The notes below the pieces were generated by a model. That model saw only the letters and a list, made by a program, of their open reading frames with translations. It had not been told where the DNA came from and searched no databases. This document shows, piece after piece, positions 1 to 19,391 of a stretch of DNA of 64,000 bases (within the stretch, counting starts at the first letter, position 1; every line of letters starts with the position of its first letter). A program made the position numbers and the translations under genes. The DNA comes from a virus (lineage: Duplodnaviria; Caudoviricetes), in IMG/VR virus record IMGVR_UViG_3300042561_002102; one strand, 5' to 3'.

Positions 1-616
1 TTAAATATATCCATCAACAGACCAAAGGGCATCTATTCTCTCTAGTTCATCTTGGATTAGAATTTTGGTAAGCTCATCTTGTTTTTTTCTTAAAGGTGGT
101 GTGTTCCAGGGTCTACTTACATAATATAAGAAGTAGGAGTTTTTGTTTATTTGTTTTTTGATAACTTCAGGCGTGAAAAAGTGATGTGTAAGTATTAGTT
201 CAGCTTCTCCTGGTTTTTCTTTTTTTTTTTTTAAGTCTACTGGTAAATCCTCGAAGAGAGTATTCATTACGGGAATTATTGAACCAAAACATTCCATCTA
301 CCTTATCGGGTGCGCCTTCTAGAGATACGAGGTGATTATGATCACAACTAAAATACCAACCTACCTCTCTTGGAGATCCATCGAGTGTTCCCAGATTGTT
401 TCCTGAACAATCAAACCATCCACTCACCTTTCCAAACCCGATACCCAAGAAATCTTCAAGTCCTTCACCACCACAAAGAAAAAATCACTCGACATCAACA
501 AGTCCTTCACTATTCACCGACCAACTTCCATCAGTATAGTTATCTAAAAACTTTCTCTGCTCATCCGTTAAACCATCACGACTCTCAAATAACTTGTAAT
601 CTCTAAGATATCTCAT
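1..616 (-). pseudogene. Divergent LRR-array paralogue A0, disrupted
   Basis: Starts MRYLRDYKLFES at 616. Has an in-frame TGA at 485-487 where paralogues have GGA, and an A13 tract (230-242) that shifts the frame; A12 would restore it. Ends DALWSVDGYI-stop at 1-3. Confidence 0.8.
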
Positions 617-627
617 AACACTATATA

Positions 628-1299
628 TTAAAGATATCCACCAATAGACCACAAATCGTCTATCTTTACAAGTATATTCTCGGGTAATATCTTTTTTAGC
701 TCTTCTTGTTTCTTCTTGAACTCTTCCGTATTCCAAACAAGACTTACGTAATACGGGAAATCAGGATTTTTAGTTATTTGTTCTTTTATAACTTCAGGTG
801 TAAAGAAATGATGGGTAAGAAGTAGTGATATTTCTTCTGGTTTGATATGGTCTATCTCGTCCAGGAAGGATTGTAAGTTATAGCTGAACAAGGTATTCTT
901 GAAGTAGAATTCATACTTTATCACTTCAGGAGCTCCCTTTAGGGATATCAAGGGATTTCTTTCACACCAAAAACTCCCACGAACCACTCTAGGTGATCCT
1001 TCAAGAGTTCTCAGTTGGTTACCATGACACAAAAAACCTTCACCAACCTCTCTAGGTGATCCCTCAAGAGTTCTCAGTTGATTATCAAAACACCAAAAAT
1101 CACCACTCACCTTTCCAAACCTGATACCTAAGAAATCTTCAAGTCCTTGACTATAACAATAAAAACTTCCCCTAACATCAACAAGTCCTTCTCTATTCAC
1201 CGACCAACTTCCATAAGTATAGTTATCTAAAAACTTACTCTGCTCATCCGTTAAACCATCACGACTCTCAAATAACTTGTAATCTCTAAGATATCTCAT
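628..1299 (-). CDS. LRR-array paralogue A1 (223 aa)
   Basis: MRYLRDYKLFES start after TAATATATA; 21-aa VxGxFxCxxNQLRTLEGSP repeats; constant C-terminus DDLWSIGGYL. Confidence 0.92.
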   Translation of the reverse strand: MRYLRDYKLFESRDGLTDEQSKFLDNYTYGSWSVNREGLVDVRGSFYCYSQGLEDFLGIRFGKVSGDFWCFDNQLRTLEGSPREVGEGFLCHGNQLRTLEGSPRVVRGSFWCERNPLISLKGAPEVIKYEFYFKNTLFSYNLQSFLDEIDHIKPEEISLLLTHHFFTPEVIKEQITKNPDFPYYVSLVWNTEEFKKKQEELKKILPENILVKIDDLWSIGGYL

Positions 1300-1315
1300 A
1301 ACACTATATATTATA

Positions 1316-1987
1316 TTAAAGGTATCCACCAATAGACCATAAATCGTCTATCTTTACAAGTATATTCTCGGGTAAAATCTTTTTTAGCTCTTCTTGTGTT
1401 TTTTTGAACCCTTCAGTATTCCAGGCAAGACTTACGTAATACGGAAAATCAGGATTTTTAGTTATTTGTTTTTTTATGATCCCAGGTGTGAAGAAATGAT
1501 GTGTGAGAAGTAGTGATATTTCATCAGGTTCGATATGGTCTATTTTTTCAAGGAAGGATTGTAAGTTATATTCGAACCAGGTTTCCTTGAAACGGAATTG
1601 ACCCTTTATCACTTCAGGTGCTCCCTGTAGAGATATCAGGGGATTTCCATCACAAGAAAAATCTCCACCAACCTTCCTCGGTGCCCCTTCAAGAGTTTTT
1701 AGTTGATTACCATCACAATCAAAATTTCCAACAACCTCACGAGGTGATCCCTCAAGAGTTCTCAGTTGATTCCAATAACACCAAAAATAACCACTCACCC
1801 GTCCAAACCTAATACCCAAGAAATCTTCAAGTCCTTGATTTTCACACCAAAAACTTCCCTCGACATCAACAAGTCCTTCACTATTCACTGACCAACTTCC
1901 ATCAGTATATTTATCTAAAAACTTCCTCTGCTCATCCGTTAAACCATCACGACTTTCAAACAATCTATAATCTCTAAGATATCTCAT
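1316..1987 (-). CDS. LRR-array paralogue A2 (223 aa)
   Basis: Same architecture; start trimmed to the MRYLRD ATG. Confidence 0.92.
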   Translation of the reverse strand: MRYLRDYRLFESRDGLTDEQRKFLDKYTDGSWSVNSEGLVDVEGSFWCENQGLEDFLGIRFGRVSGYFWCYWNQLRTLEGSPREVVGNFDCDGNQLKTLEGAPRKVGGDFSCDGNPLISLQGAPEVIKGQFRFKETWFEYNLQSFLEKIDHIEPDEISLLLTHHFFTPGIIKKQITKNPDFPYYVSLAWNTEGFKKTQEELKKILPENILVKIDDLWSIGGYL

Positions 1988-1998
1988 AACACTATATA

Positions 1999-2670
1999 TT
2001 AAAGGTATCCACCAATAGACCATAAGTCGTCTATCTTCAGGAGTATATTCTCGGGTAATGTCTTTTTCAGTTCCTCTTGTGTTTTTTTGAAGCCTTCGGT
2101 ATTCCAAGCAAGACTTACGTAATACGGGAAATCAGGATTTTTAGTTATTTGTTTTTTTATGACTTCAGGTGTAAAGAAACGATGGGTAAGTAGTAGTGAT
2201 ATTTCTTCCGGTTTGATATGGTCTATCTTGTTTAGGAATGATTGTAAGTTATAGCTGGACTCGGTATTCTTGAAACAGAACGAATCTTTTATCACTTCAG
2301 GTGCACCCTCTAGAGATATCAGGGGATTTCCAGAACACCAAAAACCTCCACCAACCTTTCTAGGTGATCCTTCAAGAGTCCTTAGTTGGTTATCGCAACA
2401 CCAAAAATTTCCACCGACTACCCTAGGTGATCCTTCAAGAGTTCTCAGTTGGTTTCTACGACAAAAAAAATAACCAGTAACCTTTCCAAACCTGATACCC
2501 AAGAAGTCACCAAGTTCTTGATCTTCACACCAAAAACTTCCCCTAACATTAACAAGTCCTTCACTATTCACCGACCAAGTTCCAATAGTATTCTTATCTA
2601 AAAACTTCCTCTGCTCGTTAGTTAGACTATTCATGTTCTCAAATAACTTGTAATCTCTTAGATATCTCAT
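1999..2670 (-). CDS. LRR-array paralogue A3 (223 aa)
   Basis: Same architecture. Confidence 0.92.
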   Translation of the reverse strand: MRYLRDYKLFENMNSLTNEQRKFLDKNTIGTWSVNSEGLVNVRGSFWCEDQELGDFLGIRFGKVTGYFFCRRNQLRTLEGSPRVVGGNFWCCDNQLRTLEGSPRKVGGGFWCSGNPLISLEGAPEVIKDSFCFKNTESSYNLQSFLNKIDHIKPEEISLLLTHRFFTPEVIKKQITKNPDFPYYVSLAWNTEGFKKTQEELKKTLPENILLKIDDLWSIGGYL

Positions 2671-2680
2671 ACTCTATATA

Positions 2681-3352
2681 TTAAAGATATCCACCAATAG
2701 ACCACAAATCGTCTATCTTCACGAGTATATTCTCGGGTAAGATCTTTTTTAGTTCATCTTGTTTCTTCTTGAACGGTTCAGTATTCCAAGCGAGACTTAC
2801 GTAGTATGGAAAATCAGGATTTTTACTGATTTGTTTTTTTATAACCTCGGGTGTAAAGAAATGATGGGTAAGTAGGAGTGATATTACATCCGGTTCGGAG
2901 TCGTCTATATTTCCAAGGAATGATCGTAAGTTATAGCTGAACCAGGTATTCTTGAATTGGAACTCACAATTTATCACTTCAGGTGCTCCCTCTAGAGATA
3001 TCAGAGGATTTGCAGAACAACAAAAATCTTCACCAACCTTTCTGGGTGATCCTTCAAGAGTTCTCAGTTGGTTATCGAAACAACTAAAATCTATACCAAC
3101 CTCTCTAGGTGATCCTTCAAGCGTTCTCAGTTGGTTACCATTACAAAAAAAACCCAACCTCACCTTTCCAAACCTAATACCTAAGAAATCTTCAAGTTCT
3201 TGACCTTGACACCAAAAACTTCCGTCGACATCAACAAGTCCTTCACTATTCACCGACCACCTTCCATGAGTATTCTTATCTAAAAACTTCCTCTGCTCAT
3301 CCGTTAAACCATCACGACTCTCGAATAGCTTATAATCTCTAAGATATCTCAT
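2681..3352 (-). CDS. LRR-array paralogue A4 (223 aa)
   Basis: Same architecture. Confidence 0.92.
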   Translation of the reverse strand: MRYLRDYKLFESRDGLTDEQRKFLDKNTHGRWSVNSEGLVDVDGSFWCQGQELEDFLGIRFGKVRLGFFCNGNQLRTLEGSPREVGIDFSCFDNQLRTLEGSPRKVGEDFCCSANPLISLEGAPEVINCEFQFKNTWFSYNLRSFLGNIDDSEPDVISLLLTHHFFTPEVIKKQISKNPDFPYYVSLAWNTEPFKKKQDELKKILPENILVKIDDLWSIGGYL

Positions 3353-3362
3353 ACTCTATATA

Positions 3363-4034
3363 TTAAAGATATCCACCAATAGACCACAAATCGTCTATCT
3401 TCACGAGTATATTCTCGGGTAACATCTTTTTTAGTTCTTCTTGTTTCTTCTTGAACCCTTCAGTATTCCAGGCAAGACTTACGTAGTATGGAAAGTTTGG
3501 ATTTTGGTCGATTTGTTCTTCGATAACTTGAGGTGTAAAGAAACGATGCGTAAGTAGTAGTGATATCTGATCCGGGTTGATTTGGTCTATACTGAATAGG
3601 AATGATTGTAAGTTATAGCTGAACCGGGTATTCTTGAAACAGAAGTTACTTCCTATCACTTCAGGTGCTCCCTCTAGGGATATAAGTGGATTTCCATAAC
3701 AATAAAAATCTCCACGAACCACTCTAGGTGATCCTTCAAGAGTTCTCAGTTGGTTCCCAGAACAACTAAAATCTTTACCAACCTCGATGGGTGCCCCTTC
3801 AGGAGTTCTCAGTTGATTATCAAAACACCAAAAATATCCACTCACCTTTCCAAACCTGATACCTAAGAAATCTTCAAGTCCTTGATTATTACACCAAAAA
3901 TTTCCCCTAACATCAACAAGTCCTTCACTATTCACCGACCAAGTGCCACGAGTATTCTTATCTAAAAACTTTCTCTGCTCATCCGTCAAACCATCACTAC
4001 TCTCGAATAGCTTATAATCTCTAAGATATCTCAT
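3363..4034 (-). CDS. LRR-array paralogue A5 (223 aa)
   Basis: Same architecture; start trimmed. Confidence 0.92.
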   Translation of the reverse strand: MRYLRDYKLFESSDGLTDEQRKFLDKNTRGTWSVNSEGLVDVRGNFWCNNQGLEDFLGIRFGKVSGYFWCFDNQLRTPEGAPIEVGKDFSCSGNQLRTLEGSPRVVRGDFYCYGNPLISLEGAPEVIGSNFCFKNTRFSYNLQSFLFSIDQINPDQISLLLTHRFFTPQVIEEQIDQNPNFPYYVSLAWNTEGFKKKQEELKKMLPENILVKIDDLWSIGGYL

Positions 4035-4045
4035 AACACTATATA

Positions 4046-4717
4046 TTAAAGATATCCACCGATAGACCACAAGTCGTCTATCTTCAGGAGTATATTCTCG
4101 GGTAATGTCTTTTTTAGCTCTTCTTGTGTTTTTTTAAATCCTTCGGTATTCCAGGCAAGACTTACGTAATATGGGAAATCAGGATCTTGGTCGATTTGTT
4201 CTTTTATAACTTCAGGTGTGAAGAAATGATGTGTAAGAAGGAGTGATATTTCATCTGGTTTGATTTGGTCTATCCTGTTTAGGAATGATGGTAAGTTATA
4301 TTTGAATCGGGTATTCTTGAAAAGGAAGTTACCCTCTATCACTTCAGGTGCTCCTTCTAGAGATATCAGTGGATTTTTATAACACCTAAAATCTCCACCA
4401 ACCACTCTAGGTGCTCCTTCAAGAGTTCTCAGTTGGTTACTGAAACAACTAAAATGTTCACCAACCTCCCTAGGTGATCCTTCAAGAGTTCTCAGTTGGT
4501 TACCCCAACAATAAAAACCTCCACTCACCTTTCCAAACCTAATACCTAAGAAATCTTCAAGTCCTTGTTCATGGCCCCAAAAACTTCCCTTGACATCAAC
4601 AAGTCCTTCACTATTCACCCACCACTTTCCACAAGCAATCCTATCTAAAAACTTACTTTGCTCATCCGTTAAACCATCATTACTCTCGAATAGCTTATAA
4701 TCTCTTAGATATCTCAT
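4046..4717 (-). CDS. LRR-array paralogue A6 (223 aa)
   Basis: Same architecture. Confidence 0.92.
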   Translation of the reverse strand: MRYLRDYKLFESNDGLTDEQSKFLDRIACGKWWVNSEGLVDVKGSFWGHEQGLEDFLGIRFGKVSGGFYCWGNQLRTLEGSPREVGEHFSCFSNQLRTLEGAPRVVGGDFRCYKNPLISLEGAPEVIEGNFLFKNTRFKYNLPSFLNRIDQIKPDEISLLLTHHFFTPEVIKEQIDQDPDFPYYVSLAWNTEGFKKTQEELKKTLPENILLKIDDLWSIGGYL

Positions 4718-4727
4718 ACTCTATATA

Positions 4728-5399
4728 TTAAAGATATCCACCGATAGACCACAAGTCGTCTATCTTCAGGAGTATATTCTCGGGTAATATCTTTTTTAGT
4801 TCATCTTGTGTTTTTTTAAATCCTTCGGTATTCCAGGCAAGACTTATGTAATATGGGAAATCAGGATTTTTAGTTATTTGTTCCTTAATAACCTCGGGTG
4901 TAAAGAAATGATGAGTAAGAAGGAGTGTTATTACATCTGGTTTTACATGGGCTATCCTGTTTAGGAATGATTGTAAGTTATATCTGAAAACGGTTCTCTT
5001 GAACAAGAATTGACCCTCTATCACTTCAGGTGCTCCCTCTAGAGATATCAAGGGATTTCCATGACAATGAAAATCTCCATCAACCTTTCTAGGTGCCCCT
5101 TCAAGAGTTCTCAGTTGATTAGCCCAACAATAAAAACCTTCACCAACCTCCACGGGTGATCCTTCAAGAGTTCTCAGTTGGTTACTACGACAACTAAAAT
5201 CTCCACTCACCTTTCCAAACCTAATACCCGAGAAATCTTCAAGTCCTTGACTATGACAATAAAAATCTCCCTCGACATCAACAAGTCCTTCACTATTCAC
5301 CGACCAAGTTCCACGAGTATACTCATCTAAGAACTTCCTCTGCTCATCCGTCAAACCATCACGACTCTCGAATAACTTATAATCTCTAAGATATCTCAT
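4728..5399 (-). CDS. LRR-array paralogue A7 (223 aa)
   Basis: Same architecture; start trimmed. Confidence 0.92.
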   Translation of the reverse strand: MRYLRDYKLFESRDGLTDEQRKFLDEYTRGTWSVNSEGLVDVEGDFYCHSQGLEDFSGIRFGKVSGDFSCRSNQLRTLEGSPVEVGEGFYCWANQLRTLEGAPRKVDGDFHCHGNPLISLEGAPEVIEGQFLFKRTVFRYNLQSFLNRIAHVKPDVITLLLTHHFFTPEVIKEQITKNPDFPYYISLAWNTEGFKKTQDELKKILPENILLKIDDLWSIGGYL

Positions 5400-5410
5400 A
5401 ACACTATATA

Positions 5411-6082
5411 TTAAAGATATCCACCAATAGACCATAAGTCGTCTATCTTCAGGAGTATATTCTCAGGTAATATCTTTTTTAGTTCATCTTGTTTCTTCTT
5501 GAACGGTTCTGTATTCCAAACAAGACTTACGTAGTATGGAAAGTTCGGATTTTTAGTTATTTGTTCTTCGATAACTTTAGGTGTAAAGAAATGATGGGTA
5601 AGAAGTAGTGATATTTCATCTGGGTTGATTTGGTCTATTTTTCTAAGGAATGATTGTAAGTCATAGTCGAAAAAGGTATCGTTGAAACAAAAGTCATTCT
5701 TTATCACATCAGGAGCTCCCTCTAGGGATATCAGGGGATTTAGATAACAATAAAAACTTCCATCAACCTCTGTAGGTGATCCTTCAAGAGTTCTTAGTTG
5801 GTTACCATGACACAAAAAATCTCCACCAACCTCGCTGGGTGCCCCTTCAAGAATCCTTAGTTGGTTACTAGAACAATTAAAACTTCCTCTCACCTTTCCA
5901 AACCTGATACCCAAGAAATCTTCAAGTCCTTGATCTTCACAAAGAAAACTTTCCTTGACATCAACAAGTCCTTCATTATTCACCGACCAAGTTCCATAAG
6001 TATTCCTATCTAAAAACTTCCTCTGCTCATCCGTTAAACCATCACGACTCTCAAATAACCTATAACCCTGGATATACTTCAT
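5411..6082 (-). CDS. LRR-array paralogue A8 (223 aa)
   Basis: Same architecture; starts MKYIQGY. Confidence 0.92.
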   Translation of the reverse strand: MKYIQGYRLFESRDGLTDEQRKFLDRNTYGTWSVNNEGLVDVKESFLCEDQGLEDFLGIRFGKVRGSFNCSSNQLRILEGAPSEVGGDFLCHGNQLRTLEGSPTEVDGSFYCYLNPLISLEGAPDVIKNDFCFNDTFFDYDLQSFLRKIDQINPDEISLLLTHHFFTPKVIEEQITKNPNFPYYVSLVWNTEPFKKKQDELKKILPENILLKIDDLWSIGGYL

Positions 6083-6093
6083 AACACTATATA

Positions 6094-6765
6094 TTAAAGA
6101 TATCCACCAATAGACCACAAATCATCTATCTTCAGGAGTATATTCTCGGGTAAGATCTTTTTTAGATCCTCTTGTTTCTTCTTGAACGGTTCTGTATTCC
6201 AAACAAGACTTACGTAATATGGGAAATCAGTATTTTGAGTTATTTGTTCCCGAATAACCTCGGGTGTAAAGAAATGATGGGTAAGTAGGAGTGATATTAA
6301 TTCTGGTTTCATACGGTCTATCTCGTTTAGGAATGATTGTAAGTTATATCTGAAATAGGTTTTCTTGAAACTGAATTGACCCTCTATCACTTCAGGTGCT
6401 CCCTCTAGAGATATAAGTGGATTTTCATAACAATAAAAACTTCCACCAACCACTCTAGGTGATCCTTCAAGAGTTCTCAGTTGGTTACCCCAACACCCAA
6501 AATCTCCACCAACCTAGCTGGGTGCCCCATCAAGAGTTCTTAGTTGGTTACTACTACAATAAAAACTTCCGCTCACCTTTCCAAACCTGATACCTAAGAA
6601 ATCTTCAAGTCCTTGACCTTGACAATAAAAACCTCCCTTGATATCAACAAGTCCTTCACTATTCACCGACCAAATTCCACTAATACACTTAGCTAAAAAC
6701 TTCCTCTGCTCATCCGTTAAACCATCACGACTCTCGAATAGCTTATACTTTCTAATATACTTCAT
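6094..6765 (-). pseudogene. LRR-array paralogue A9 with internal nonsense codon
   Basis: Full-length 672-bp frame with an in-frame TAG at 6514-6516 where paralogues have GAG (APS-E-V). Confidence 0.85.
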
Positions 6766-6866
6766 ACTACTATATATTAAAGATATCCACCGATAAACTA
6801 CCCTTCATCTACTCCCTCTAGATCCTCTTGAGATAGGATTCTACGAAGCTCATTTTTTTGAAGGTG

Positions 6867-6988
6867 AGATACATTTAGGTTTTCTTTTTTAATATATACA
6901 CTAAAATAATAAACGAAGATGAAAGATAAAAGACACATAAAAAGTTTTAATGAAGCAACAGAAAACTTGAACATATCTGGTCTTAGTG
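6867..6988 (+). repeat. Degenerate leader-type attC-like element (left core lost)
   Basis: AGATACATTT..AACATATCTG arms; homologous to 10140-10273 and 12582-12716; contains TAATATATA and the ATG of the 6919 ORF. Confidence 0.6.
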
Positions 6989-7173: not shown

Positions 7174-7186
7174 TTAAAACTATTAT

Positions 7187-7321: not shown

Positions 7322-7334
7322 AACGGTTTTTATT

Positions 7335-11794: not shown

Positions 11795-11966
11795 AAAGAC
11801 GGCACAATAAAAGAAATTTATAGAGATAAAAAACAATAGAAGTGATGGCAAAAAAAATAGAAGTGATATTGAAACTAATAATCGCAATATTAACAGGTGT
11901 TGTGGTTTGGGAGTGGTTTCAAATCATTTCTATTTTGACCATCGAATCCGGTAAATTTTCATAGAT

Positions 11967-12272: not shown

Positions 12273-12286
12273 TAATATAGATTTAT

Positions 12287-12466
12287 ATGGAAAAAGAAAG
12301 GGAAAAAACAACAATCTTCTGTGGTGTTTATCACGAAATGACCGAAGAGGAGAAGAACAATTTTATCAATATGATGTCAGAAAATGGAAAGTATGATGTT
12401 GTTTTTGATGATGGTAATACTATACCTAAATTAGTGGAAATGTCTCTACCATTTTTAAAAACTTGA
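12287..12466 (+). CDS. Hypothetical protein (59 aa, not in ORF track)
   Basis: MEKEREKT...PFLKT; stop lies 3 nt before TAAC at 12470. Confidence 0.55.
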   Translation: MEKEREKTTIFCGVYHEMTEEEKNNFINMMSENGKYDVVFDDGNTIPKLVEMSLPFLKT

Positions 12467-12579
12467 ATATAACTCGTTTATTCGTGAAGTTTTACCAACC
12501 CTATACACCCGAATGATGTTGTATTTGTGTTGGTAAGATTTGGAAATCTCGAAACTTATTTGTATATTTGTAAAAAAAT
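12467..12579 (+). repeat. Promoter-type boundary element
   Basis: TATAACTCGTTTAT...TTTG (12539)...TATATTTG (12563-12570). Confidence 0.65.
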
Positions 12580-12581
12580 TA

Positions 12582-12716
12582 CACATAACGTCTCTTAGAT
12601 ATATTTAGGTTTTTTTTTTAATATATACTAAAAACAATTTACGAAGATGAAAGGTAATAAACACATAAAAAGTTTCAACGAGCATCAAGAAAACTTGAAT
12701 ATATCTGATGCTGGCG
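12582..12716 (+). repeat. Leader-type attC-like element with mutated right core
   Basis: CACATAAC..agatatattt ... aatatatctg-at-GCTGGCG. Confidence 0.65.
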
Positions 12717-13183
12717 AAGGCTTTGGATTGAAAACTGGTAAATATGTATTATATAACCATCAGACCATTCCATTACCAATTGAAATTACTGAGATAGGTA
12801 TGGATGGCTGGATAGAATTTGAAACTGACTATTCAGTTGGTAATAAACAATATTGGGTAAAGGAATTCATTGGAACAGAAATGGAGGGACTTGTATACGA
12901 TCCGATCAGGGGTTGGTTTAAATTTAGTGAGATAGAAAAAGTAGAAGGAAAAAAAATATACTTGCTTGTTGGTGATATTTTCAAAATTAAAGCACAGAGA
13001 TTAATAGATGATACTAAAAAACTAAAAGACGAATACTCCCAAAGCCAATATAAAAAGATAATAGATTTAGAAAAACTAATACATGGAACAGAAGATGATA
13101 GGAAAAAGTTTGTTAAATCTATTATGAGACTTTTAGGAATGACAAAGTGGGACTTACCAGATGAGTTGTATAGGTATTTGTAA
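12647..13183 (+). CDS. Hypothetical protein with shared leader
   Basis: MKGNKHIKSFNEHQENLNISDA, then unique sequence. Confidence 0.8.
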   Translation: MKGNKHIKSFNEHQENLNISDAGEGFGLKTGKYVLYNHQTIPLPIEITEIGMDGWIEFETDYSVGNKQYWVKEFIGTEMEGLVYDPIRGWFKFSEIEKVEGKKIYLLVGDIFKIKAQRLIDDTKKLKDEYSQSQYKKIIDLEKLIHGTEDDRKKFVKSIMRLLGMTKWDLPDELYRYL

Positions 13184-13189
13184 AATTAT

Positions 13190-13243
13190 CACTAACGTAT
13201 GATGATAAACAATCGTTTTAATGTTGTTTATCATTTGTTATGT
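13190..13243 (+). repeat. Short attC-like hairpin
   Basis: CACTAAC-gtatg-atgataaacaa..ttgtttatcat-tt-GTTATGT; perfect 11-bp inner stem. Confidence 0.8.
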
Positions 13244-13272
13244 GTAGTCTATTTCATAAATATATAATTAAT

Positions 13273-13725
13273 ATGAAGCTAAAAAAATACAACGAATACA
13301 ATTCACATAAAGATACATTAATAGTATCAGCTTTTCCAGGATGTGGAAAATCACACTATTTCAGAGAAAATAGGGACAAAATCGTACTTGACTCTGATTC
13401 AAGTAAGTTTGATAAATCAGATTTTCCAAGAAACTATATTCAACATATCAAAGAAAATAGGGGTAAAGTCGATGTTATAATGGTTTCTTCTCATAAAGAG
13501 GTAAGGGATGCGTTGGTAGAAAATGGAATAGAATTTACATTAGTATATCCTGATAAATCTATAAAAGATGAGTATATTCAAAGATATATTGATAGAGGTA
13601 GTCCAGATTCATTTATCAACTTACTTACGAAAAATTGGGAATTGTGGATTGATGAACTCGATAATCAAATTGGTTGTGATAAAATAAAACTAAAAGAAGG
13701 TGAATATCTTTCGGATGTTTTATAA
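13273..13725 (+). CDS. Small P-loop NTPase / kinase-like protein
   Basis: IVSAFPGCGKS Walker A; VLDSDSS; start trimmed to MKLKKYNE. Confidence 0.7.
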   Translation: MKLKKYNEYNSHKDTLIVSAFPGCGKSHYFRENRDKIVLDSDSSKFDKSDFPRNYIQHIKENRGKVDVIMVSSHKEVRDALVENGIEFTLVYPDKSIKDEYIQRYIDRGSPDSFINLLTKNWELWIDELDNQIGCDKIKLKEGEYLSDVL

Positions 13726-13734
13726 AATAGATTA

Positions 13735-13867
13735 CACATAACGATACTCAGATATACTCAGTTCCCAGATTTAATATATAAACTTAAATTGAAACACGAA
13801 ACAATTGAAAAGAACAGAATTAAAAGATTTAACGAAAACTCAGAATTGAATATATCTGATGTTAGCA
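13735..13867 (+). repeat. Leader-type attC-like element (divergent loop)
   Basis: CACATAAC..cagatatactca ... tgaatatatctg-at-GTTAGCA. Confidence 0.7.
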
Positions 13868-13974
13868 GTTCGTTGTATCCTACCGATGAACAAATTTTAG
13901 AAATGGTAGAAGATTTTACAAAAGACTTGAATGTGAGCAACACAGTTAAAAAAGCGACGATTTGTGGTCTATAG
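13789..13974 (+). pseudogene. Truncated leader-fused ORF joined to array B upstream remnant
   Basis: RIKRFNENSELNISDV leader; at ~13955 it runs into array sequence GACGATTTGTGGTCTATAGG. Confidence 0.5.
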
Positions 13975-13999
13975 GGGGGTATCTTTAATATATAGTCAT

Positions 14000-14671
14000 A
14001 TGAAGTATATTAGAAAGTATAAGTTATTTGAGAGTAGTGATGGTTTGACGGATGAGCAAAGGAAGTTTTTAGATAGGAATACTGAAGGAACTTGGTCGGT
14101 GAATAAAGAAGGACTTGTTGATGTTAGGGGAAGTTTTTGGTGTCAAGGTCAAGAACTTGGAGATTTCTTAGGTATCAAGTTTGGAAAGGTGAGTGGAAGT
14201 TTTTTTTGTTGGGGTAACCAACTGAGAACTCTTGAAGGATCACCTAGAGAGGTTGGTGGAAATTTTGGGTGTAATGGTAACCAACTGAGAACTCTTGAAG
14301 GATCCCCTATGATGGTTGGTGAAAGTTTTTGGTGTGGAGAAAATCCTTTAATATCTTTAGAAGGAGCTCCTGAAGTGATAGAGGAAGAGTTCAAATTCAA
14401 GAATACCTGGTTCGACTATAACTTACAATCATTCCTAGACGAGATAGACCGTATCAAGCCGGATGAAATATCACTGCTACTTACCCATCACTTCTTCACA
14501 CCACAAGTTATAAAAGAACAAATAACTAAAAATCCTGATTTCCCGTATTATGTAAGTCTTGCCTGGAATACAGAAGGATTCAAAAAAACACAAGATGAAC
14601 TTAAAAAGATCTTACCCGAGAATATACTCGTGAAGATAGACGACTTGTGGTCTATTGGTGGATATTTATAA
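14000..14671 (+). CDS. LRR-array paralogue B1 (223 aa)
   Basis: MKYIRKYKLFES; same architecture as array A. Confidence 0.92.
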   Translation: MKYIRKYKLFESSDGLTDEQRKFLDRNTEGTWSVNKEGLVDVRGSFWCQGQELGDFLGIKFGKVSGSFFCWGNQLRTLEGSPREVGGNFGCNGNQLRTLEGSPMMVGESFWCGENPLISLEGAPEVIEEEFKFKNTWFDYNLQSFLDEIDRIKPDEISLLLTHHFFTPQVIKEQITKNPDFPYYVSLAWNTEGFKKTQDELKKILPENILVKIDDLWSIGGYL

Positions 14672-14682
14672 TATATAGTAGT

Positions 14683-15354
14683 ATGAAGTATATCCAGGGT
14701 TATAAGTTATTCGAGAGTCGTGATGGTTTGACGGATGAGCAGAGAGAGTTTTTAGATAGGATTGCTCGTGGAAGGTGGTCGGTGAATAGTGAAGGACTTG
14801 TTGATATCAAGGGAATTTTTATTTGTAGTGGTGAAGGACTTGAAGATTTCTTAGGTATCAGGTTTGGAAAGGTGAGTGGAAATTTTTCTTGTAGAGATAA
14901 CCAACTGAGAACTCTTAAAGGATCACCTAGAGAGGTTGGTGGAGATTTTAGTTGTCGTGGTAACCAACTTAGAACTCTTGAAGGATCACCTAGAAAGGTT
15001 GATGGATGTTTTTATTGTTATAGAAATCCACTGGTATCCCTAGAGGGAGCTCCTGAAGTGATAGAGGGTAGCTTCTATTTCAAGAATACCTGGTTCAGAT
15101 ATAACTTACCATCATTCCTGAACTGGATAGACCGTATCAAACCGAGTGAAATATCACTACTACTTACCCATCATTTCTTTACGATTGAGGTTATTCAGGA
15201 ACAAATCGACCAAAATCCTGATTTCCCATATTATGTAAGTTGCGCCTGGAATACTGAAGGATTCAAGAAGAAACAAGAAGAGCTAAAAAAGATATTACCC
15301 CAGAATATACTCGTTAAGATAGATGATTTGTGGTCTATTGGTGGATATCTTTAA
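14683..15354 (+). CDS. LRR-array paralogue B2 (223 aa)
   Basis: Same architecture. Confidence 0.92.
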   Translation: MKYIQGYKLFESRDGLTDEQREFLDRIARGRWSVNSEGLVDIKGIFICSGEGLEDFLGIRFGKVSGNFSCRDNQLRTLKGSPREVGGDFSCRGNQLRTLEGSPRKVDGCFYCYRNPLVSLEGAPEVIEGSFYFKNTWFRYNLPSFLNWIDRIKPSEISLLLTHHFFTIEVIQEQIDQNPDFPYYVSCAWNTEGFKKKQEELKKILPQNILVKIDDLWSIGGYL

Positions 15355-15366
15355 TATATACAGAGT

Positions 15367-16038
15367 ATGAAGTATATCCAGGGTTATAGGTTATTTGGGA
15401 AAGTAGATAGTCTCACTGACGAGCAGAGGAAGTTTTTAGATAAGTATATTTCAGGAAGATGGTCAGTGAATGGTGGAGGACTTGTTGATATCGAGGGAAG
15501 TTTTATTCCTGGTGGTGGAGGACTTGAAGATTTCTTAGGTATCAGGTTTGGAAAGGTGAGTGTAAGTTTTAATTGTTGGGGTAACCAACTGAGAACTCTT
15601 GAAGGGGCACCTAGGGTGGTTGATGGAAATTTTAGTTGTTCTAAGAACCAACTGAGAACTCTTGAAGGATCACCTAGAGTGGTTCGTGGAAGTTTTTGGT
15701 GTGAAGGAAATCCCTTGATATCCCTAAAGGGAGCCCCTGAAGTGATAGAGGGTTCCTTCTGTTTCAAGAATACTTATTTCGGATATAACTTACAATCATT
15801 CCTTGAAAAAATAGACGACGACCAACCTGATGAAATATCACTCCTACTTACCCATCACTTCTTCACACCTCAAGTTATCGAAGAACAAATAACTAAAAAT
15901 CCTGATTTCCCATACTACGTAAGTCTTGTTTGGAATACAGAACCGTTCAAGAAGAAACAAGATGAACTAAAAAAGATCCTACCCGAGAATATACTCGTGA
16001 AGATAGATGATCTGTGGTCTATTGGTGGATACCTTTAA
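15367..16038 (+). CDS. LRR-array paralogue B3 (223 aa)
   Basis: Same architecture. Confidence 0.92.
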   Translation: MKYIQGYRLFGKVDSLTDEQRKFLDKYISGRWSVNGGGLVDIEGSFIPGGGGLEDFLGIRFGKVSVSFNCWGNQLRTLEGAPRVVDGNFSCSKNQLRTLEGSPRVVRGSFWCEGNPLISLKGAPEVIEGSFCFKNTYFGYNLQSFLEKIDDDQPDEISLLLTHHFFTPQVIEEQITKNPDFPYYVSLVWNTEPFKKKQDELKKILPENILVKIDDLWSIGGYL

Positions 16039-16048
16039 TATATAGAGT

Positions 16049-16783
16049 ATGAAGTATATTCGAGATTATAAGCTATTTGAGAGTCGTGATGGTTTGACGG
16101 ATGAGCAGAGGAAGTTTTTAGATAAGAATACTCGTGGAACTTGGTCGGTGAATAGTGAAGGACTTGTTGATGTCGACGGAAGTTTTTGGTGTGAAGATCA
16201 AGAACTTGGTGACTTCTTGGGTATCAGGTTTGGAGAGGTAATTGGAAGTTTTCGGTGTTATGCTAACCAACTGAGAACTCTTGAAGGATCACCCAGAAAG
16301 GTTGGTGGAAATTTTAGTTGTTTCAGTAACCAACTGAGAACTCTTGAAGGATCACCTAGGGAGGTTGTTGGGGGTTTTTATTGTTTTCGTAACCAGCTGA
16401 GAACTCTTGAAGGATCACCTAGAGTGGTTGGTGGACATTTTAATTGTTCGGAAAATCTACTGATATCTCTAGAAGGAGCACCTGAAGTGATAGAGGGTCA
16501 TTTCTGTTTCAAGAATACCTGGTTCAGCTATGACTTACGATCATTCCTGAACGAGATAGACCGTATAAAACCAGATGAAATATCACTGATACTTATCCAT
16601 CACTTCTTTACACCCGAGGTTATTCGGGAACAAATAACTCGAAATCCTGATTTTCCATATTACGTAAGTCTTGTTTGGAATACAGAAGGGTTCAAAAAAA
16701 CACAAGAAGTCCTAAAAAAGATCTTACCCCAGAATATACTCGTTAAGATAGATGATTTGTGGTCTATTGGTGGATATTTATAA
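16049..16783 (+). CDS. LRR-array paralogue B4 (244 aa, one extra repeat)
   Basis: 223+21 aa. Confidence 0.92.
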   Translation: MKYIRDYKLFESRDGLTDEQRKFLDKNTRGTWSVNSEGLVDVDGSFWCEDQELGDFLGIRFGEVIGSFRCYANQLRTLEGSPRKVGGNFSCFSNQLRTLEGSPREVVGGFYCFRNQLRTLEGSPRVVGGHFNCSENLLISLEGAPEVIEGHFCFKNTWFSYDLRSFLNEIDRIKPDEISLILIHHFFTPEVIREQITRNPDFPYYVSLVWNTEGFKKTQEVLKKILPQNILVKIDDLWSIGGYL

Positions 16784-16794
16784 TATATAGTATT

Positions 16795-17403
16795 ATGAGA
16801 TATCTTAGAGATTATAGATTGTTTGAGAATGTAGATAGTCTTACTGACGAGCAGAGGAAGTTTTTAGATAACTTTACTCGTGGAACTTGGTCGGTGAATA
16901 ATGAAGGACTTGTTGATATCAAGGGGAGTTTTCTTTGTGGTAATGAAGGACTTGAAGATTTCTTAGGTATCAGGTTTGGAAAGGTGAGTGGACATTTTTA
17001 TTGTTGGGGTAACCAACTGAGAACTCTTGAAGGATCACCTAGAAAGGTTGGTGAAGATTTTAATTGTGCTGATAATCCACTGATATCCCTAGAGGGAGCA
17101 CCTGAAGTTATAAAGTGTGATTTCCGTTTCAAGAATACCTGGTTCAGATATAACCTACAATCATTCCTTAAAAAAATGCTCCAAATCAAACCAGATGAAA
17201 TATCACTCCTACTTACCCATCATTTCTTTACACCACAAGTCATAAAAGAACAAATAACTAAAAATCCTGATTTTCCATATTACGTAAGTCTTGCCTGGAA
17301 TACCGAAGGGTTCAAGAAGAAACAAGAGGAGCTAAAAAAGATATTACCCCAGAATATAGTTGTCAAGATAGACGACTTATGGTCTATTGGTGGATATCTT
17401 TAA
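16795..17403 (+). CDS. LRR-array paralogue B5 (202 aa, one repeat fewer)
   Basis: 223-21 aa. Confidence 0.92.
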   Translation: MRYLRDYRLFENVDSLTDEQRKFLDNFTRGTWSVNNEGLVDIKGSFLCGNEGLEDFLGIRFGKVSGHFYCWGNQLRTLEGSPRKVGEDFNCADNPLISLEGAPEVIKCDFRFKNTWFRYNLQSFLKKMLQIKPDEISLLLTHHFFTPQVIKEQITKNPDFPYYVSLAWNTEGFKKKQEELKKILPQNIVVKIDDLWSIGGYL

Positions 17404-17414
17404 TATATAGTGTT

Positions 17415-18086
17415 ATGAGATATCTAAGGGATTATAGATTGTTTGAGAATGTAGATAGTCTAACTGACGAGCAGAGGAAGTTTTTAGATAAGTATTCTTC
17501 TGGAAAGTGGTCAATGAATGGTGAAGGACTTGTTGATATCAAGGGAAGTTTTTTTTGTGGTAGTCAAGGACTTGAAGATTTCTTAGGTATCAGGTTTGGA
17601 AAGGTGAGTGGAAATTTTTATTGTGATGATAACCAACTAAGGACTCTTGATGGGGTACCTAGCGAGGTTGGTGCAGATTTTGGGTGTTGGGGTAACCAAC
17701 TGAGAACTCTTGAAGGATCACCTAGAAAGGTTGGTGATGGTTTTTATTGTGGTACAAATCCACTTATATCTCTAGAGGGAGCTCCTGAAGTGATAGGGTA
17801 TTACTTCATTTTCAAGAATACCTTGTTAAGATATAACTTACAATCATTCCTAAACGAGATAGACCGTATCGAACCTGATGTAATATCAGTCCTACTTACC
17901 CATTATTTCTTTACACCCGAGGTTATTAAGGAACAAATAACTAAAAATCCTGATTTCCCTTACTACGTAAGTCTTGCGTGGAACACGGAAGGATTCAAAA
18001 AAACACAAAATGAACTAAAAAAGATATTACCCGAGAATACACTCCTAAAGATAGACGACTTATGGTCTATCGGTGGATATCTTTAA
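17415..18086 (+). CDS. LRR-array paralogue B6 (223 aa)
   Basis: Same architecture. Confidence 0.92.
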   Translation: MRYLRDYRLFENVDSLTDEQRKFLDKYSSGKWSMNGEGLVDIKGSFFCGSQGLEDFLGIRFGKVSGNFYCDDNQLRTLDGVPSEVGADFGCWGNQLRTLEGSPRKVGDGFYCGTNPLISLEGAPEVIGYYFIFKNTLLRYNLQSFLNEIDRIEPDVISVLLTHYFFTPEVIKEQITKNPDFPYYVSLAWNTEGFKKTQNELKKILPENTLLKIDDLWSIGGYL

Positions 18087-18098
18087 TATATACAGAGT

Positions 18099-18770
18099 AT
18101 GAAGTATATCCAGGATTATAAGTTATTTGAGAGTCGTGATGGTTTAACGGATGAGCAGAGGAAGTTCTTAGATAAGAATACTGAAGGAACTTGGTCGGTG
18201 AATAGTGAAGGACTTGTTGATATCAAGGGAAGTTTTTGGTGTCAAGATCAAGGACTTGAAGATTTCTTAGGTATTAGGTTTGGAAAGGTGAGTGGAGGTT
18301 TTTATTGTTATTATAACCAACTGAGAACTCTTGAAGGGGCACCCAGAGAGGTTGGTGGAAATTTTGATTGTGATGGTAACCAACTAAGAACTCTTGAAGG
18401 ATCACCTAGGGAGGTTGATGGAAATTTTTATTGTTATGAAAATCCCCTGGTATCCCTAGAGGGAGCTCCTGAAGTGATAAAGATTGACTTCCGTTTCAAT
18501 AATACCGTTTTCAGATATAACTTACAATCATTCCTAAGAGTGTTAGACCAAATCAAACCTGATGTAATATCAGTCCTACTTACCCATTATTTCTTTACAC
18601 CCGAGGTTATTAAGGAACAAATAACTAAAAATCCTGATTTCCCTTACTACGTAAGTCTTGCGTGGAACACGGAAGGATTCAAAAAAACACAAAATGAACT
18701 AAAAAAGATATTACCCGAGAATACACTCCTAAAGATAGACGACTTATGGTCTATCGGTGGATATCTTTAA
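18099..18770 (+). CDS. LRR-array paralogue B7 (223 aa)
   Basis: Same architecture. Confidence 0.92.
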   Translation: MKYIQDYKLFESRDGLTDEQRKFLDKNTEGTWSVNSEGLVDIKGSFWCQDQGLEDFLGIRFGKVSGGFYCYYNQLRTLEGAPREVGGNFDCDGNQLRTLEGSPREVDGNFYCYENPLVSLEGAPEVIKIDFRFNNTVFRYNLQSFLRVLDQIKPDVISVLLTHYFFTPEVIKEQITKNPDFPYYVSLAWNTEGFKKTQNELKKILPENTLLKIDDLWSIGGYL

Positions 18771-18782
18771 TATATACAGAGT

Positions 18783-19391
18783 ATGAAGTATATCCAGGAT
18801 TATAAGTTATTTGAGAGTCGTGATGGTTTAACGGATGAGCAGAGGAAGTTTTTAGATAGGATTGCTCCTGGTAGGTGGTCGGTGAATAGTGAAGGACTTG
18901 TTGATATCAAGGGAAGTTTTTATTGTTATAGACAAAGACTTGAAGATTTCTTAGGTATTAGGTTTGGAAAGGTGAGTGGAGGTTTTTATTGTTGGGGTAA
19001 CCAACTGAGAACTCTTGAAGGATCACCTAGGGAGGTTGGTGAAGATTTTAATTGTGCTAATAATCTACTGATATCCCTAGAGGGAGCACCTGAAGTTATA
19101 AAGCATGAATTCTGGTTCATGAATAGCAGTTTCAGATATAACTTACGATCATTCCTTAGAAAAATGCCCCAAATCAAACCAGATGAAATATCACTCCTAC
19201 TTACCCATCATTTCTTCACACCTGAAGTCATAAAAAAACAAATCGACCAAAATCCTGATTTTCCATATTACGTAAGTCTTGCCTGGAATACCGAGGGGTT
19301 CAAAAAAACACAAGAGGAGCTAAAAAAGATTTTACCCCAGAATATAGTTGTAAAGATAGACGACTTATGGTCTATTGGTGGATATCTTTAG
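18783..19391 (+). CDS. LRR-array paralogue B8 (202 aa)
   Basis: Last copy; ends in TAG and is not followed by TAATATATA. Confidence 0.92.
   Translation: MKYIQDYKLFESRDGLTDEQRKFLDRIAPGRWSVNSEGLVDIKGSFYCYRQRLEDFLGIRFGKVSGGFYCWGNQLRTLEGSPREVGEDFNCANNLLISLEGAPEVIKHEFWFMNSSFRYNLRSFLRKMPQIKPDEISLLLTHHFFTPEVIKKQIDQNPDFPYYVSLAWNTEGFKKTQEELKKILPQNIVVKIDDLWSIGGYL

What the first reader, a model, noticed from the sequence alone, without database searches (positions are those of the whole stretch)
1..19391. Antibody-like repertoire: 18 LRR paralogues hypervariable only on the predicted binding face
Seen: ~683-bp units repeated 10 times on minus and 8 times on plus. Each has a near-constant N-cap and C-terminal domain around 21-aa repeats VxGxFxCxxNQLRTLEGSPxx. 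Variation concentrates at the x positions around F, C and N, which carry W/Y/F/H/R/D/N/G/S. Established: these positions map onto LxxLxLxxN concave beta-sheet residues, the surface diversified in lamprey VLRs; T4 packages IPI-type internal proteins that block host nucleases. Inference: this is a phage-encoded, recombinationally diversified library of binders, probably packaged and injected, aimed at polymorphic host defence proteins or receptors.
Basis: partly seen in the sequence, partly recalled or inferred. Interest (0 to 1): 0.92.

Follow-up and report, generated by a model that had tools for sequence, protein, structure and literature searches.

The report
Hypervariable LRR gene arrays in huge phage
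A huge bacteriophage, probably of Bacteroidota, carries two back-to-back arrays of 18 near-identical leucine-rich-repeat genes (16 intact) that differ almost only on the predicted binding face, which is under strong positive selection: an inherited library of binders whose targets are unknown.

Summary
Window 1-19391 holds 18 units of about 683 bp: 10 on the minus strand (8 intact, 2 decayed) and 8 intact on the plus strand. The two arrays diverge from a 7-kb AT-rich core that carries a TnpB gene.

Each 202-244-aa protein has a conserved 12-aa leader, an N-cap, 4-6 rungs of a 21-aa cysteine-ladder LRR (Internalin-J type), and a conserved helical C-domain.

Twenty sites fixed in advance from the LRR register (F-1, F+1, F+3, F+4) give N/S 16 (omega about 4.9), against omega about 0.35 elsewhere. 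Synonymous rates there are not raised. The copies are mosaic (PHI p<0.001).

The antibody/VLR analogy holds only for where the variation sits. Same-strain contigs from several metagenomes carry nucleotide-identical copies, differing by one lost unit, one conversion patch and one new pseudogene. There is no DGR and no cassette assembly. This is germline birth-and-death evolution.

A related lineage has at least 20 copies at the same locus, and only 1 of the 16 specificities is shared. The N-cap+LRR module is a large, apparently undescribed multigene family of jumbo phages with T4-type portals.

Targets, timing and packaging are untested. A T4-CTS-like leader, shared with non-LRR neighbours, is a lead for packaging.

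The parts
1..616 (-). Decayed 18th unit (pseudogene): in-frame stop, frameshift at an A-run, diverged 3' half. It marks the outer end of the minus array.
   Evidence: Contigs of the same phage show non-array genes (NUDIX, SAICAR synthase, PurS) beyond it.
628..6082 (-). Eight intact 223-aa LRR paralogues: 628-1299, 1316-1987, 1999-2670, 2681-3352, 3363-4034, 4046-4717, 4728-5399, 5411-6082.
6094..6765 (-). First unit of the minus array, with an in-frame stop at 6514-6516 (it replaces the E of APSEVGG). The same break is seen in other strains.
6766..13999 (+). AT-rich core (27-29% GC, against 37-38% in the arrays) between the diverging arrays. It holds about 16 small plus-strand ORFs, and short 3'-end remnants of a unit sit immediately upstream of each array's first gene. 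Four ORFs share a 22-aa N-terminal leader (6919, 10204, 12647, 13789). There are three near-identical Bacteroidota-type promoter-like motifs at 7259, 9042 and 12539.
10578..11789 (+). TnpB/OrfB_IS605 (Cas12f-like TNB) gene in the core. An 83%-identical copy follows the end of the array in the related lineage (L005).
14000..19391 (+). Eight intact LRR paralogues: 14000-14671 (223 aa), 14683-15354 (223), 15367-16038 (223), 16049-16783 (244, one extra rung), 16795-17403 (202, one rung fewer), 17415-18086 (223), 18099-18770 (223), 18783-19391 (202).

Best explanation
This is a germline, birth-and-death multigene family of small non-secreted LRR binder proteins encoded by a huge phage, probably one infecting Bacteroidota.

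Each protein is built from constant and variable parts. The constant parts are a 12-aa leader, an N-cap, the LRR framework with its cysteine ladder, and a six-helix C-domain; all are kept by purifying selection. The variable part is a stripe of about 20-26 exposed residues on the concave sheet, rich in Tyr, Trp, Ser, Gly, Asp, Arg and Asn.

Selection drives that stripe apart between paralogues. Unequal crossing-over changes copy number and rung number. Gene conversion shuffles segments, including between the two inverted arrays.

The most likely function (inferred) is as follows. The 16 co-oriented, tightly packed genes are co-expressed. Each product binds a different variant of a polymorphic ligand from the host or from a competing element, most plausibly defence or surface proteins. 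The constant leader and C-domain couple every paralogue to one shared phage function. That function could be loading into the capsid through a T4-CTS-like leader, followed by cleavage after LFE and injection.

Shown: the anatomy, the LRR fold, positive selection on the concave register, recombination, stability within a strain, repertoire turnover between lineages, and the family's spread in jumbo phages.

Inferred: binding, the nature of the targets, co-expression and packaging.
For: - Architecture and hypervariable positions.
- LRR identity: InlJ (3bz5) at E=2e-8, with F/C/N aligned to L4/C6/N9. AF2 pLDDT 92.9, with short strands at the F-x positions. VIA-align top 50 all LRR, Z up to 9.7. 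Foldseek top hits are LRR, including VLR-like proteins. Pfam LRR_4 in 26 of 100 relatives.
- Selection, pairwise NG86 at sites chosen by entropy: dN 1.04, dS 0.33, against 0.097 and 0.386 elsewhere.
- Selection, 20 sites fixed in advance: N=531, S=33, against N=891, S=769 elsewhere; Fisher p=8e-81; omega about 4.9 against 0.35.
- dS at hypervariable codons is not raised, so this is selection rather than a mutational hot spot.
- The C-domain has high dS (0.55) and low dN (0.08), so its constancy reflects purifying selection rather than homogenisation.
- Recombination: PHI 0.673 against 0.763+-0.009 in permutations. Nearest neighbours switch along the gene and across arrays. A 98-nt identical tract carries rung-2 hypervariable codons between m4046 and p18783. 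Strain L001 lacks one unit and strain L002 has a conversion patch.
- Functional constraint on a specificity: m1999 and L003_p13973 share 25 of 26 hypervariable residues although their frameworks differ by 6.3%.
- The other 15 copies have no specificity-orthologue in a lineage whose flank is 94% identical and whose orthologous array has at least 20 copies.
- The same hypervariable register appears in an independent 219-kb jumbo phage cluster.
- There is no signal peptide or hydrophobic segment (sequence).
Against: - No ligand, expression or virion data exist.
- The C-domain has no recognisable fold relative (best Z 6.1), so the proposed shared function is undefined.
- Exposure of the variable sites was inferred from the LRR register and the model's strand pattern. 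It was not measured on coordinates, because the model file could not be read.
- The omega estimates come from counting methods on a recombining family, not from a likelihood model with recombination partitions.
- The neighbouring genes are nucleases, methyltransferases, Hsp70 and TnpB. That does not point to any particular target.
Confidence: 0.6

Rival explanations
1. The paralogues are virion-exposed adhesion or receptor-binding modules. The constant C-domain or leader docks them on fibres, whiskers or the capsid. The hypervariable face binds polymorphic host surface structures, widening host range.
For: - Receptor-binding proteins are the fastest-evolving phage genes, and LRR or beta-helix modules are predicted host-recognition elements in the jumbo phage Goslar.
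- Bacteroidota surfaces carry polymorphic tandem LRR proteins suggested to act as phage receptors (PMC10392669).
- One relative (P0182) lies next to a T4-type portal gene.
- The constant-anchor-plus-variable-tip logic fits.
Against: - The proteins are small (25 kDa) and show no fibre, trimerisation or beta-helix features.
- No structural genes lie in the 64-kb window; the neighbours are nucleases, a methylase, Hsp70 and TnpB.
- The only cultured relative sits beside a DnaB-like helicase.
Confidence: 0.2
2. The variation is produced by a dedicated hypermutation or assembly mechanism that operates during the phage's life. Candidates are a diversity-generating retroelement, VLR-like cassette copying, or TnpB-triggered conversion. 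The selection signal would then be secondary.
For: - A TnpB nuclease gene lies between the arrays, and next to the array in a second lineage.
- Conversion tracts and a conversion patch are seen.
- The variation is extremely focused.
Against: - Copies are nucleotide-identical in near-identical strains from other metagenomes.
- Synonymous divergence at hypervariable codons (0.33) is no higher than elsewhere (0.39).
- About 21% of hypervariable residues (W, E, K, Q) cannot arise from AAY/NNY mutagenesis.
- No reverse transcriptase was found among the window ORFs of 269 aa or more that were scanned.
- All units are complete genes, not an incomplete gene with cassettes.
Confidence: 0.04
3. The locus is a bacterial cell-surface LRR locus like that of Flavobacterium psychrophilum, or a chimeric metagenome assembly, and not a phage feature.
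For: - Tandem LRR loci exist in Bacteroidota.
- The window has a T9SS-sorting-domain ORF, a DnaK homologue and glycosyltransferases.
- No whole genome is held for the window.
Against: - The Hsp70 is 72-74% identical to those of 634-642-kb uncultured phages.
- The neighbouring ORF has relatives in Cellulophaga phages and huge phages.
- The proteins lack a signal peptide and a T9SS domain.
- The C-domain patterns were not found in 185,579 species genomes.
- Relatives cluster in IMG/VR jumbo phages with T4-type portals.
- The array was assembled identically in several samples.
Confidence: 0.03
4. The variable sites are unconstrained surface positions drifting neutrally in redundant gene copies that are kept for dosage.
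For: - High copy number with constant frameworks.
- Two, and in one strain three, copies are decaying.
Against: - N/S at the sites fixed in advance is about 5 times the neutral expectation.
- The residue mix at hypervariable sites is biased toward Y, W, S, G, D and R.
- One specificity is conserved at 25 of 26 residues across lineages despite framework divergence.
Confidence: 0.05

Closest known systems
Lamprey/hagfish variable lymphocyte receptors (VLR)
   Same: An LRR scaffold in which diversity sits on the concave beta-sheet positions x3, x5, x7 and x8 of LxxLxLxxN. The variable residues are rich in Tyr, Trp, Ser, Asp and Asn. Rung number varies. VLR and VLR-like structures appear among the fold matches.
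   Different: VLR diversity is made somatically, by copying flanking cassettes into one incomplete germline gene. Here every unit is a complete inherited gene and is stable between strains. There are no LRRNT/LRRCT cysteine caps and no stalk. The proteins are cytosolic or virion-borne, not secreted.
Tandem LRR protein locus of Flavobacterium psychrophilum (Duchaud 2007; Altae-Tran et al. 2020, PMC10392669)
   Same: Up to 19 tandem LRR paralogues in a Bacteroidota setting. Hypervariable residues lie on one face, there are recombination signatures, and copy number differs between strains.
   Different: That locus is bacterial. Its proteins have a signal peptide and a T9SS C-terminal domain, carry 2-14 repeats of about 22 aa, and are interspersed with many gene fragments. 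Here the locus is phage-encoded, with no secretion signals, a 21-aa cysteine-ladder repeat and its own leader and helical C-domain.
Listeria Internalin-J (PDB 3bz5), cysteine-ladder LRR
   Same: The only solved structure found by sequence (E=2e-8). It has a 21-residue repeat with Cys at LRR position 6, and F/C/N align to L4/C6/N9.
   Different: InlJ is a long, wall-anchored bacterial adhesin with an inter-repeat Ig-like domain. It is a single gene, with no paralogue array and no hypervariable register.
Multigene families of large eukaryotic DNA viruses (entomopoxvirus LRR gene family, poxvirus ankyrin/F-box proteins, Bodo saltans virus ankyrin arrays)
   Same: Tandem arrays of repeat-protein binders in a viral genome, with a variable binding domain plus a constant terminal module, thought to track host factors. 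Entomopoxvirus and giant-virus LRR proteins appear among the structural matches in the viral library. The comparison with ankyrin/F-box and BsV arrays rests on my own knowledge.
   Different: Those are viruses of eukaryotes, and the constant module, where known, is an F-box that recruits host ubiquitin ligase. Here the virus is a bacteriophage and the constant C-domain has no known relative.
T4 internal proteins IPI/IPII/IPIII with their capsid targeting sequence
   Same: A short conserved N-terminal leader ending hydrophobic-x-Glu followed by a small residue: MKTYQEFIAE|A in T4 against M[KR]Y[IL][QR]xY[KR]LFE|S here. The leader is shared by otherwise unrelated small proteins of the same phage. 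Relatives have T4-type portals.
   Different: The folds are unrelated. Cleavage and packaging have not been shown here. No S77 prohead protease hit reached the Pfam cut-off in the related huge phages. That the T4 leader acts as a targeting and cleavage signal is recalled from the literature (Mullaney and Black 1996), not tested here.
Diversity-generating retroelement targets (e.g. Bordetella phage Mtd)
   Same: A phage-encoded protein with a hypervariable ligand-binding surface.
   Different: There is no RT or template repeat. The substitutions are not adenine-specific. The fold is LRR, not C-type lectin or Ig. Diversity is spread over many paralogues rather than regenerated in one gene.

Membership tests
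Leucine-rich repeat superfamily | Tandem repeats with the LxxLxLxxN/CxL highly conserved segment | tested here: met
   4-6 rungs of x-x-x-F-x-C-x-x-N-Q-L-x-x-L per protein, with F, C, N and L invariant.
Leucine-rich repeat superfamily | Curved solenoid with a parallel beta-sheet on the concave side | tested here: met
   AF2 model pLDDT 92.9, with a short strand at each F-x. All 50 best VIA-align chains are LRR proteins, Z 6.4-9.7, covering residues about 11-166. Foldseek top hits are all LRR but weak, E>=0.08.
Leucine-rich repeat superfamily | Match to curated LRR profiles | tested here: inconclusive
   The window proteins themselves give no Pfam LRR hit at E<=1. 26 of 100 relatives match LRR_4, best E 2.3e-11. 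A profile of the window copies hits InlJ at E=2e-8.
InlJ-type cysteine-ladder LRR | 21-residue repeat with Cys replacing the hydrophobic residue at position 6 | tested here: met
   63-bp period. Cys is invariant at repeat position 7 (= LRR position 6) and aligns to the InlJ ladder cysteines.
Variable lymphocyte receptors | One incomplete germline gene flanked by partial LRR cassettes that are copied in somatically | tested here: not met
   16 complete ORFs and 2 decayed full-length units. The copies are identical across strains.
Variable lymphocyte receptors | LRRNT and LRRCT cysteine-knot caps and a C-terminal stalk | tested here: not met
   The N-cap is a helix plus hairpin with no Cys pairs, and the C-terminus is a six-helix domain.
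Diversity-generating retroelement system | Reverse transcriptase plus template repeat, with variation confined to template adenines | tested here: not met
   No RT among the window ORFs scanned. W, E, K and Q make up 21% of hypervariable residues. dS at hypervariable codons is not raised. The rest of the phage genome could not be searched.
T4-type packaged internal proteins | N-terminal capsid targeting sequence removed by the prohead protease after [LI]-x-E | tested here: inconclusive
   The leader ends L-F-E|S. It is conserved in distant relatives although disordered in the model. It is shared with non-LRR ORFs and resembles the T4 IPII/IPIII leader. Cleavage has not been tested.
T4-type packaged internal proteins | Presence in the virion | not testable with these tools
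   No proteome data are available, and the phage is uncultured.
F. psychrophilum-type surface LRR locus | Signal peptide and T9SS C-terminal sorting domain | tested here: not met
   The N-terminus is charged and non-hydrophobic (MRYLRDYKLFESRDG), and there is no Por_Secre_tail hit in the LRR proteins.

The most novel reading that the evidence does not exclude
Jumbo and huge phages with T4-like heads carry inherited repertoires of tens of LRR 'paratopes'. These are loaded into the capsid through a shared N-terminal targeting leader, cleaved after LFE, and injected with the DNA. Each one pre-emptively binds and disables a different allele of the host's polymorphic immune sensors or effectors. 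This would be a viral counterpart of an innate immune receptor repertoire, and a previously unrecognised, widespread class of phage counter-defence.
Probability: 0.2. Interest if true: 0.92.

Novelty: new variant of a known kind. Interest (0 to 1): 0.74.

Why it matters
Multigene families of binders under diversifying selection mark host-parasite arms races in plants, animals and large eukaryotic viruses. They have hardly been described in bacteriophages, where rapid evolution is usually assigned to tail fibres, DGR targets and single anti-defence genes.

Here a compact, well-defined scaffold (about 25 kDa, no disulfide caps, cytoplasmic) shows one of the cleanest framework-versus-paratope partitions one could ask for. 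The same family occurs in tens of copies per genome across jumbo phages.

If the targets are host defence proteins, the family would be a major unexplored arm of phage counter-defence and a predictor of host range. If they are surface ligands, it is a new class of receptor-binding module. Either way the scaffold is a natural, bacterially expressible binder library of possible practical use.

The shared N-terminal leader may also give a handle on protein packaging in uncultured huge phages.

Tried and rejected
- Pfam, PHROGs and ESM Atlas on the window proteins gave no usable family.
- The C-terminal domain folded alone reached pLDDT 75, and VIA-align found only generic helical-repeat matches at Z<=6.1. 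No function can be read from it.
- Complex prediction on two copies of the full protein returned 'no answer' (score 0.01). This is no evidence either way.
- A sigma-70 promoter and terminator scan gave counts at chance level.
- Rfam found nothing in the window.
- A genome-contig scan with C-domain patterns found no bacterial relative.
- The whole-genome search was impossible because no genome is held. The 178-kb JGI contig of the same phage could not be searched either.
- The S77 prohead protease search in related huge phages gave only sub-threshold hits of 20-24 bits.
- Six literature searches found no paper describing phage LRR arrays. The library is partial, so this is weak evidence of novelty.
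- The DGR idea was rejected on residue spectrum, dS and strain identity.
- An assembly artefact was rejected on independent identical assemblies.
- Model coordinates could not be read in the Python box, so solvent exposure of the variable sites was not computed.

Full report
**What is there**

ORF listing and pattern scans show two arrays of one gene family. Nine units lie on the minus strand between 628 and 6765, and eight on the plus strand between 14000 and 19391. A more decayed eighteenth unit occupies 1-616 on the minus strand.

Sixteen units are intact ORFs. The unit at 6094-6765 has an in-frame stop at 6514-6516. The unit at 1-616 has a stop, a frameshift and a diverged 3' half.

The standard gene is 672 bp (223 aa). 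One copy has an extra 63-bp rung (244 aa) and two lack one (202 aa). Spacers are 10-16 nt and conserved, so each array looks like one transcription unit.

The arrays point away from a 7-kb AT-rich core (27-29% GC against 37-38% in the arrays). The core holds about 16 small plus-strand ORFs and a TnpB/OrfB_IS605 gene. Contigs of the same phage show that the minus array ends at the decayed unit; NUDIX, SAICAR synthase and PurS genes follow.

**What the protein is**

The alignment shows these parts in order:
- a conserved 12-residue N-terminus, M[RK]Y[LI][RQ]xY[KR]LFES;
- a helix-hairpin N-cap;
- a degenerate first rung;
- two to four canonical 21-residue rungs, V-x-G-x-F-x-C-x-x-N-Q-L-R-T-L-E-G-S/A-P-x-x;
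- a closing rung;
- an 83-residue C-terminal domain that is nearly invariant.

Pfam and PHROGs do not recognise the window proteins. A profile of the 16 copies, however, matches Listeria Internalin-J (PDB 3bz5) at E=2e-8. In that alignment F, C and N fall on positions 4, 6 and 9 of the LRR motif, so this is the 21-residue cysteine-ladder LRR type.

An AlphaFold2 model built on 62 sequences has mean pLDDT 92.9. Foldseek's best PDB hits are all LRR proteins, though weak. An exhaustive VIA-align search gives 50 of 50 LRR proteins at the top, with Z up to 9.7. Of 100 distant relatives, 26 match Pfam LRR_4.

The C-domain is six helices. Folded alone it finds only generic helical-repeat matches at Z<=6.1, which is not significant for helical folds. 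There is no signal peptide or hydrophobic segment.

**Where the variation is, and why**

Column entropy is near zero for the framework. It reaches 2.5-3.3 bits at repeat positions 4, 6, 8 and 9, the x before F, the x between F and C, and the two after C. Corresponding positions of the first and last rungs also vary. In the LRR register these are x3, x5, x7 and x8. Established LRR structural knowledge places these side chains outward on the concave sheet; they are the positions diversified in VLRs.

I could not read the model coordinates. Exposure therefore rests on the register, on the in/out alternation with invariant F, C and N, and on the model's strand positions.

| Measure | Hypervariable sites | Rest of gene |
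|---|---|---|
| Pairwise Nei-Gojobori, 20 highest-entropy codons | dN 1.04, dS 0.33 | dN 0.097, dS 0.386 |
| Parsimony counts, 20 codons fixed in advance (F-1, F+1, F+3, F+4 of five rungs), 45 unique genes | N=531, S=33 (omega about 4.9) | N=891, S=769 (omega about 0.35) |

The second test was set up to avoid choosing sites by their variability. Its Fisher p is 8e-81.

Two further points matter:
- Synonymous divergence at the hypervariable codons is not raised, so the signal is selection and not a mutational hot spot.
- The C-domain has the highest dS (0.55) with low dN (0.08), so its constancy is purifying selection and not recent homogenisation.

Hypervariable residues are dominated by S, G, Y, D, R, E, N and W, a paratope-like mix.

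**How the family evolves**

The copies are mosaics. The nearest neighbour changes along the gene and often lies in the opposite array. A 98-nt identical tract carrying rung-2 hypervariable codons links m4046 and p18783. A 212-nt identical tract links p17415 and p18099. A PHI test gives 0.673 against 0.763+-0.009 in 1000 permutations.

Contigs of the same phage from other metagenomes are essentially identical to the window. Fifteen of the 16 intact copies recur letter for letter in the contigs examined from four other samples. The few differences seen are all recombination or decay:
- L001 has lost exactly one unit.
- L002 has a clustered patch of changes in the N-terminus of m5411, typical of gene conversion.
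- In the same strain (L002/L009), two SNPs split copy m4728.

This is birth-and-death evolution with conversion. It is not the ongoing or somatic diversification implied by 'antibody-like'.

A second lineage has a flank 94% identical at the boundary of the same array. It has at least 20 tandem copies there, again followed by a TnpB gene that is 83% identical. Only one window copy has a specificity-orthologue in that lineage: m1999 and L003_p13973 share 25 of 26 hypervariable residues while their frameworks are 93.7% identical. One more copy shares 17 of 26, and the rest share 3-12.

So repertoires turn over between lineages. A given specificity, once present, can nevertheless be held constant, which argues that the variable residues are functional.

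**Whose genome, and how widespread**

The evidence for a huge phage of Bacteroidota is:
- The window's Hsp70 is 72-74% identical to those of 634-642-kb uncultured huge phages.
- The ORF next to the plus array has relatives in those phages and in Cellulophaga phages.
- One ORF carries a near-threshold T9SS sorting domain.
- Bacteroidota-type promoter motifs are enriched, 10 against 4.4 expected.

A profile search of 1.84 billion cluster representatives finds 20,257 relatives at E<=1e-3. Most share the leader, N-cap and rungs (residues 1-131) but have other C-termini. In IMG/VR the module occurs on 40-350-kb viral contigs.

| Record | Size | Matches | T4-type portal |
|---|---|---|---|
| IMG/VR G002 | 349 kb | 17 | yes |
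| IMG/VR G003 | 290 kb | 23 | yes |
| IMG/VR G004 | 230 kb | 10 | yes |
| IMG/VR G005 | 219 kb | 39 | not found |
| IMG/VR G006 | 207 kb | 10 | not found |
| LR756501 | 735 kb | cluster of 4-5 genes | not searched |

The matches in these genomes are mostly in tandem clusters. In the G005 cluster the same repeat positions are hypervariable, at 2.9-3.6 bits, with invariant F, C and N. Nineteen of its genes also share the first half of the C-domain.

The window is therefore an especially regular example of a family-wide phenomenon. The only cultured carriers found are two Vibrio phages, where the gene is a hypothetical protein beside a helicase. Six literature searches found no description of such phage arrays. 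The closest published case is the bacterial tandem LRR locus of Flavobacterium psychrophilum.

**The leader**

Residues 1-12 are disordered in the model (pLDDT below 50). Even so, they are conserved in relatives that are only 31-42% identical overall, as M[KR]H[IL]K[ST][FY]xxFE[SA], and they are under purifying selection.

A closely similar leader, MK..KHIKSFNE..ENLNISD, heads four otherwise dissimilar small ORFs of the core. Such a motif occurs within the first 22 residues of 17 of 111 ORFs in the window, and elsewhere in only 1. Non-LRR ORFs in the G005 cluster carry it too.

T4 IPII and IPIII begin MKTYQEFIAE|A, and IPI begins MKTFKEFTS. From the literature as I recall it, not tested here, this peptide targets proteins to the prohead core and is removed by gp21 after [LI]-x-E. 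The leader here ends L-F-E|S.

Prohead-protease hits in the related huge phages are below threshold, and nothing shows cleavage or virion location. I put packaging at roughly one in three.

**Verdict**

The structural reading, hypervariability confined to the LRR binding face under positive selection with recombinational shuffling, is supported.

The mechanism is germline paralogue diversification rather than an antibody- or VLR-like generator. Targets and delivery remain inferences.

The most likely function is a co-expressed repertoire of binders against polymorphic host or competitor ligands, coupled to a shared phage function through the constant leader and C-domain. A virion-surface receptor-binding role is the main rival.

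It is a new variant of a known kind: viral or host-conflict multigene families of repeat-protein binders. It has apparently not been described for bacteriophages.

Noticed in passing
window 6919-7173, 10204-10446, 12647-13183, 13789-13974 (+); looser at 28459-28929 (+): Four otherwise dissimilar small ORFs share a 22-aa N-terminal leader, MK..K[HR][IL]K[SR]FNE..EN.NISD, that resembles the LRR family's leader. The motif is N-terminus-specific: 17 of 111 ORFs have it in the first 22 residues, against 1 of 111 elsewhere. Similar leaders head non-LRR ORFs in the G005 jumbo phage cluster (L045).
   Followed up: partly
window 10578-11789 (+); L005 10296-11507: A TnpB/OrfB_IS605 (Cas12f-like) gene sits between the two arrays. 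An 83%-identical copy sits directly after the array in a related lineage. Whether its nuclease activity promotes array recombination is unknown. No omega-RNA family matched in Rfam.
   Followed up: partly
window 7259-7290, 9042-9073, 12539-12570 (+): Three near-identical matches to the Bacteroidota promoter consensus (TTTG-N-TAnnTTTG) share the core TTTGGAAATCTSGAAA. The window has 10 consensus matches against 4.4 expected by chance.
   Followed up: partly
window 32321-33895 (+): A 524-aa phage ORF has a C-terminal T9SS sorting domain (Por_Secre_tail, 25.7 bits against a cut-off of 27). This is a possible phage-encoded cargo of the host's type IX secretion system and a hint that the host is a Bacteroidota.
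   Followed up: no
window 38632-40509 (+): A full-length Hsp70/DnaK homologue (807 bits) is 72-74% identical to those of 634-642-kb uncultured huge phages.
   Followed up: partly
window 55852-61235 (-): Two very large ORFs (772 and 1018 aa) combine glycosyltransferase and FkbM methyltransferase domains.
   Followed up: no
IMG/VR records G002 316138-319008, G003 29443-32392, G004 35768-38640: Jumbo phages that carry the LRR family have two adjacent paralogous T4-type portal genes.
   Followed up: no
L002 729-1400 / L009 5901-6572 (= window 4728-5399): In one strain, copy m4728 is split into 141- and 78-aa ORFs by two SNPs at codons 79-80. This is a strain-specific pseudogene in an otherwise identical array.
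   Followed up: partly
window 6766-6800 and 13955-13987: Each array is preceded by a short remnant of the 3' end of a unit (...WSIGGYL*-like). The duplication unit is therefore offset from the gene, and both arrays start with a broken unit.
   Followed up: partly
window 19709-21799 (-): A 696-aa ORF flanks the plus array and has no Pfam or PHROG family. It has 27-31%-identical relatives, in several copies, in huge phages and in Cellulophaga phages phi38:1 and phi40:1.
   Followed up: partly
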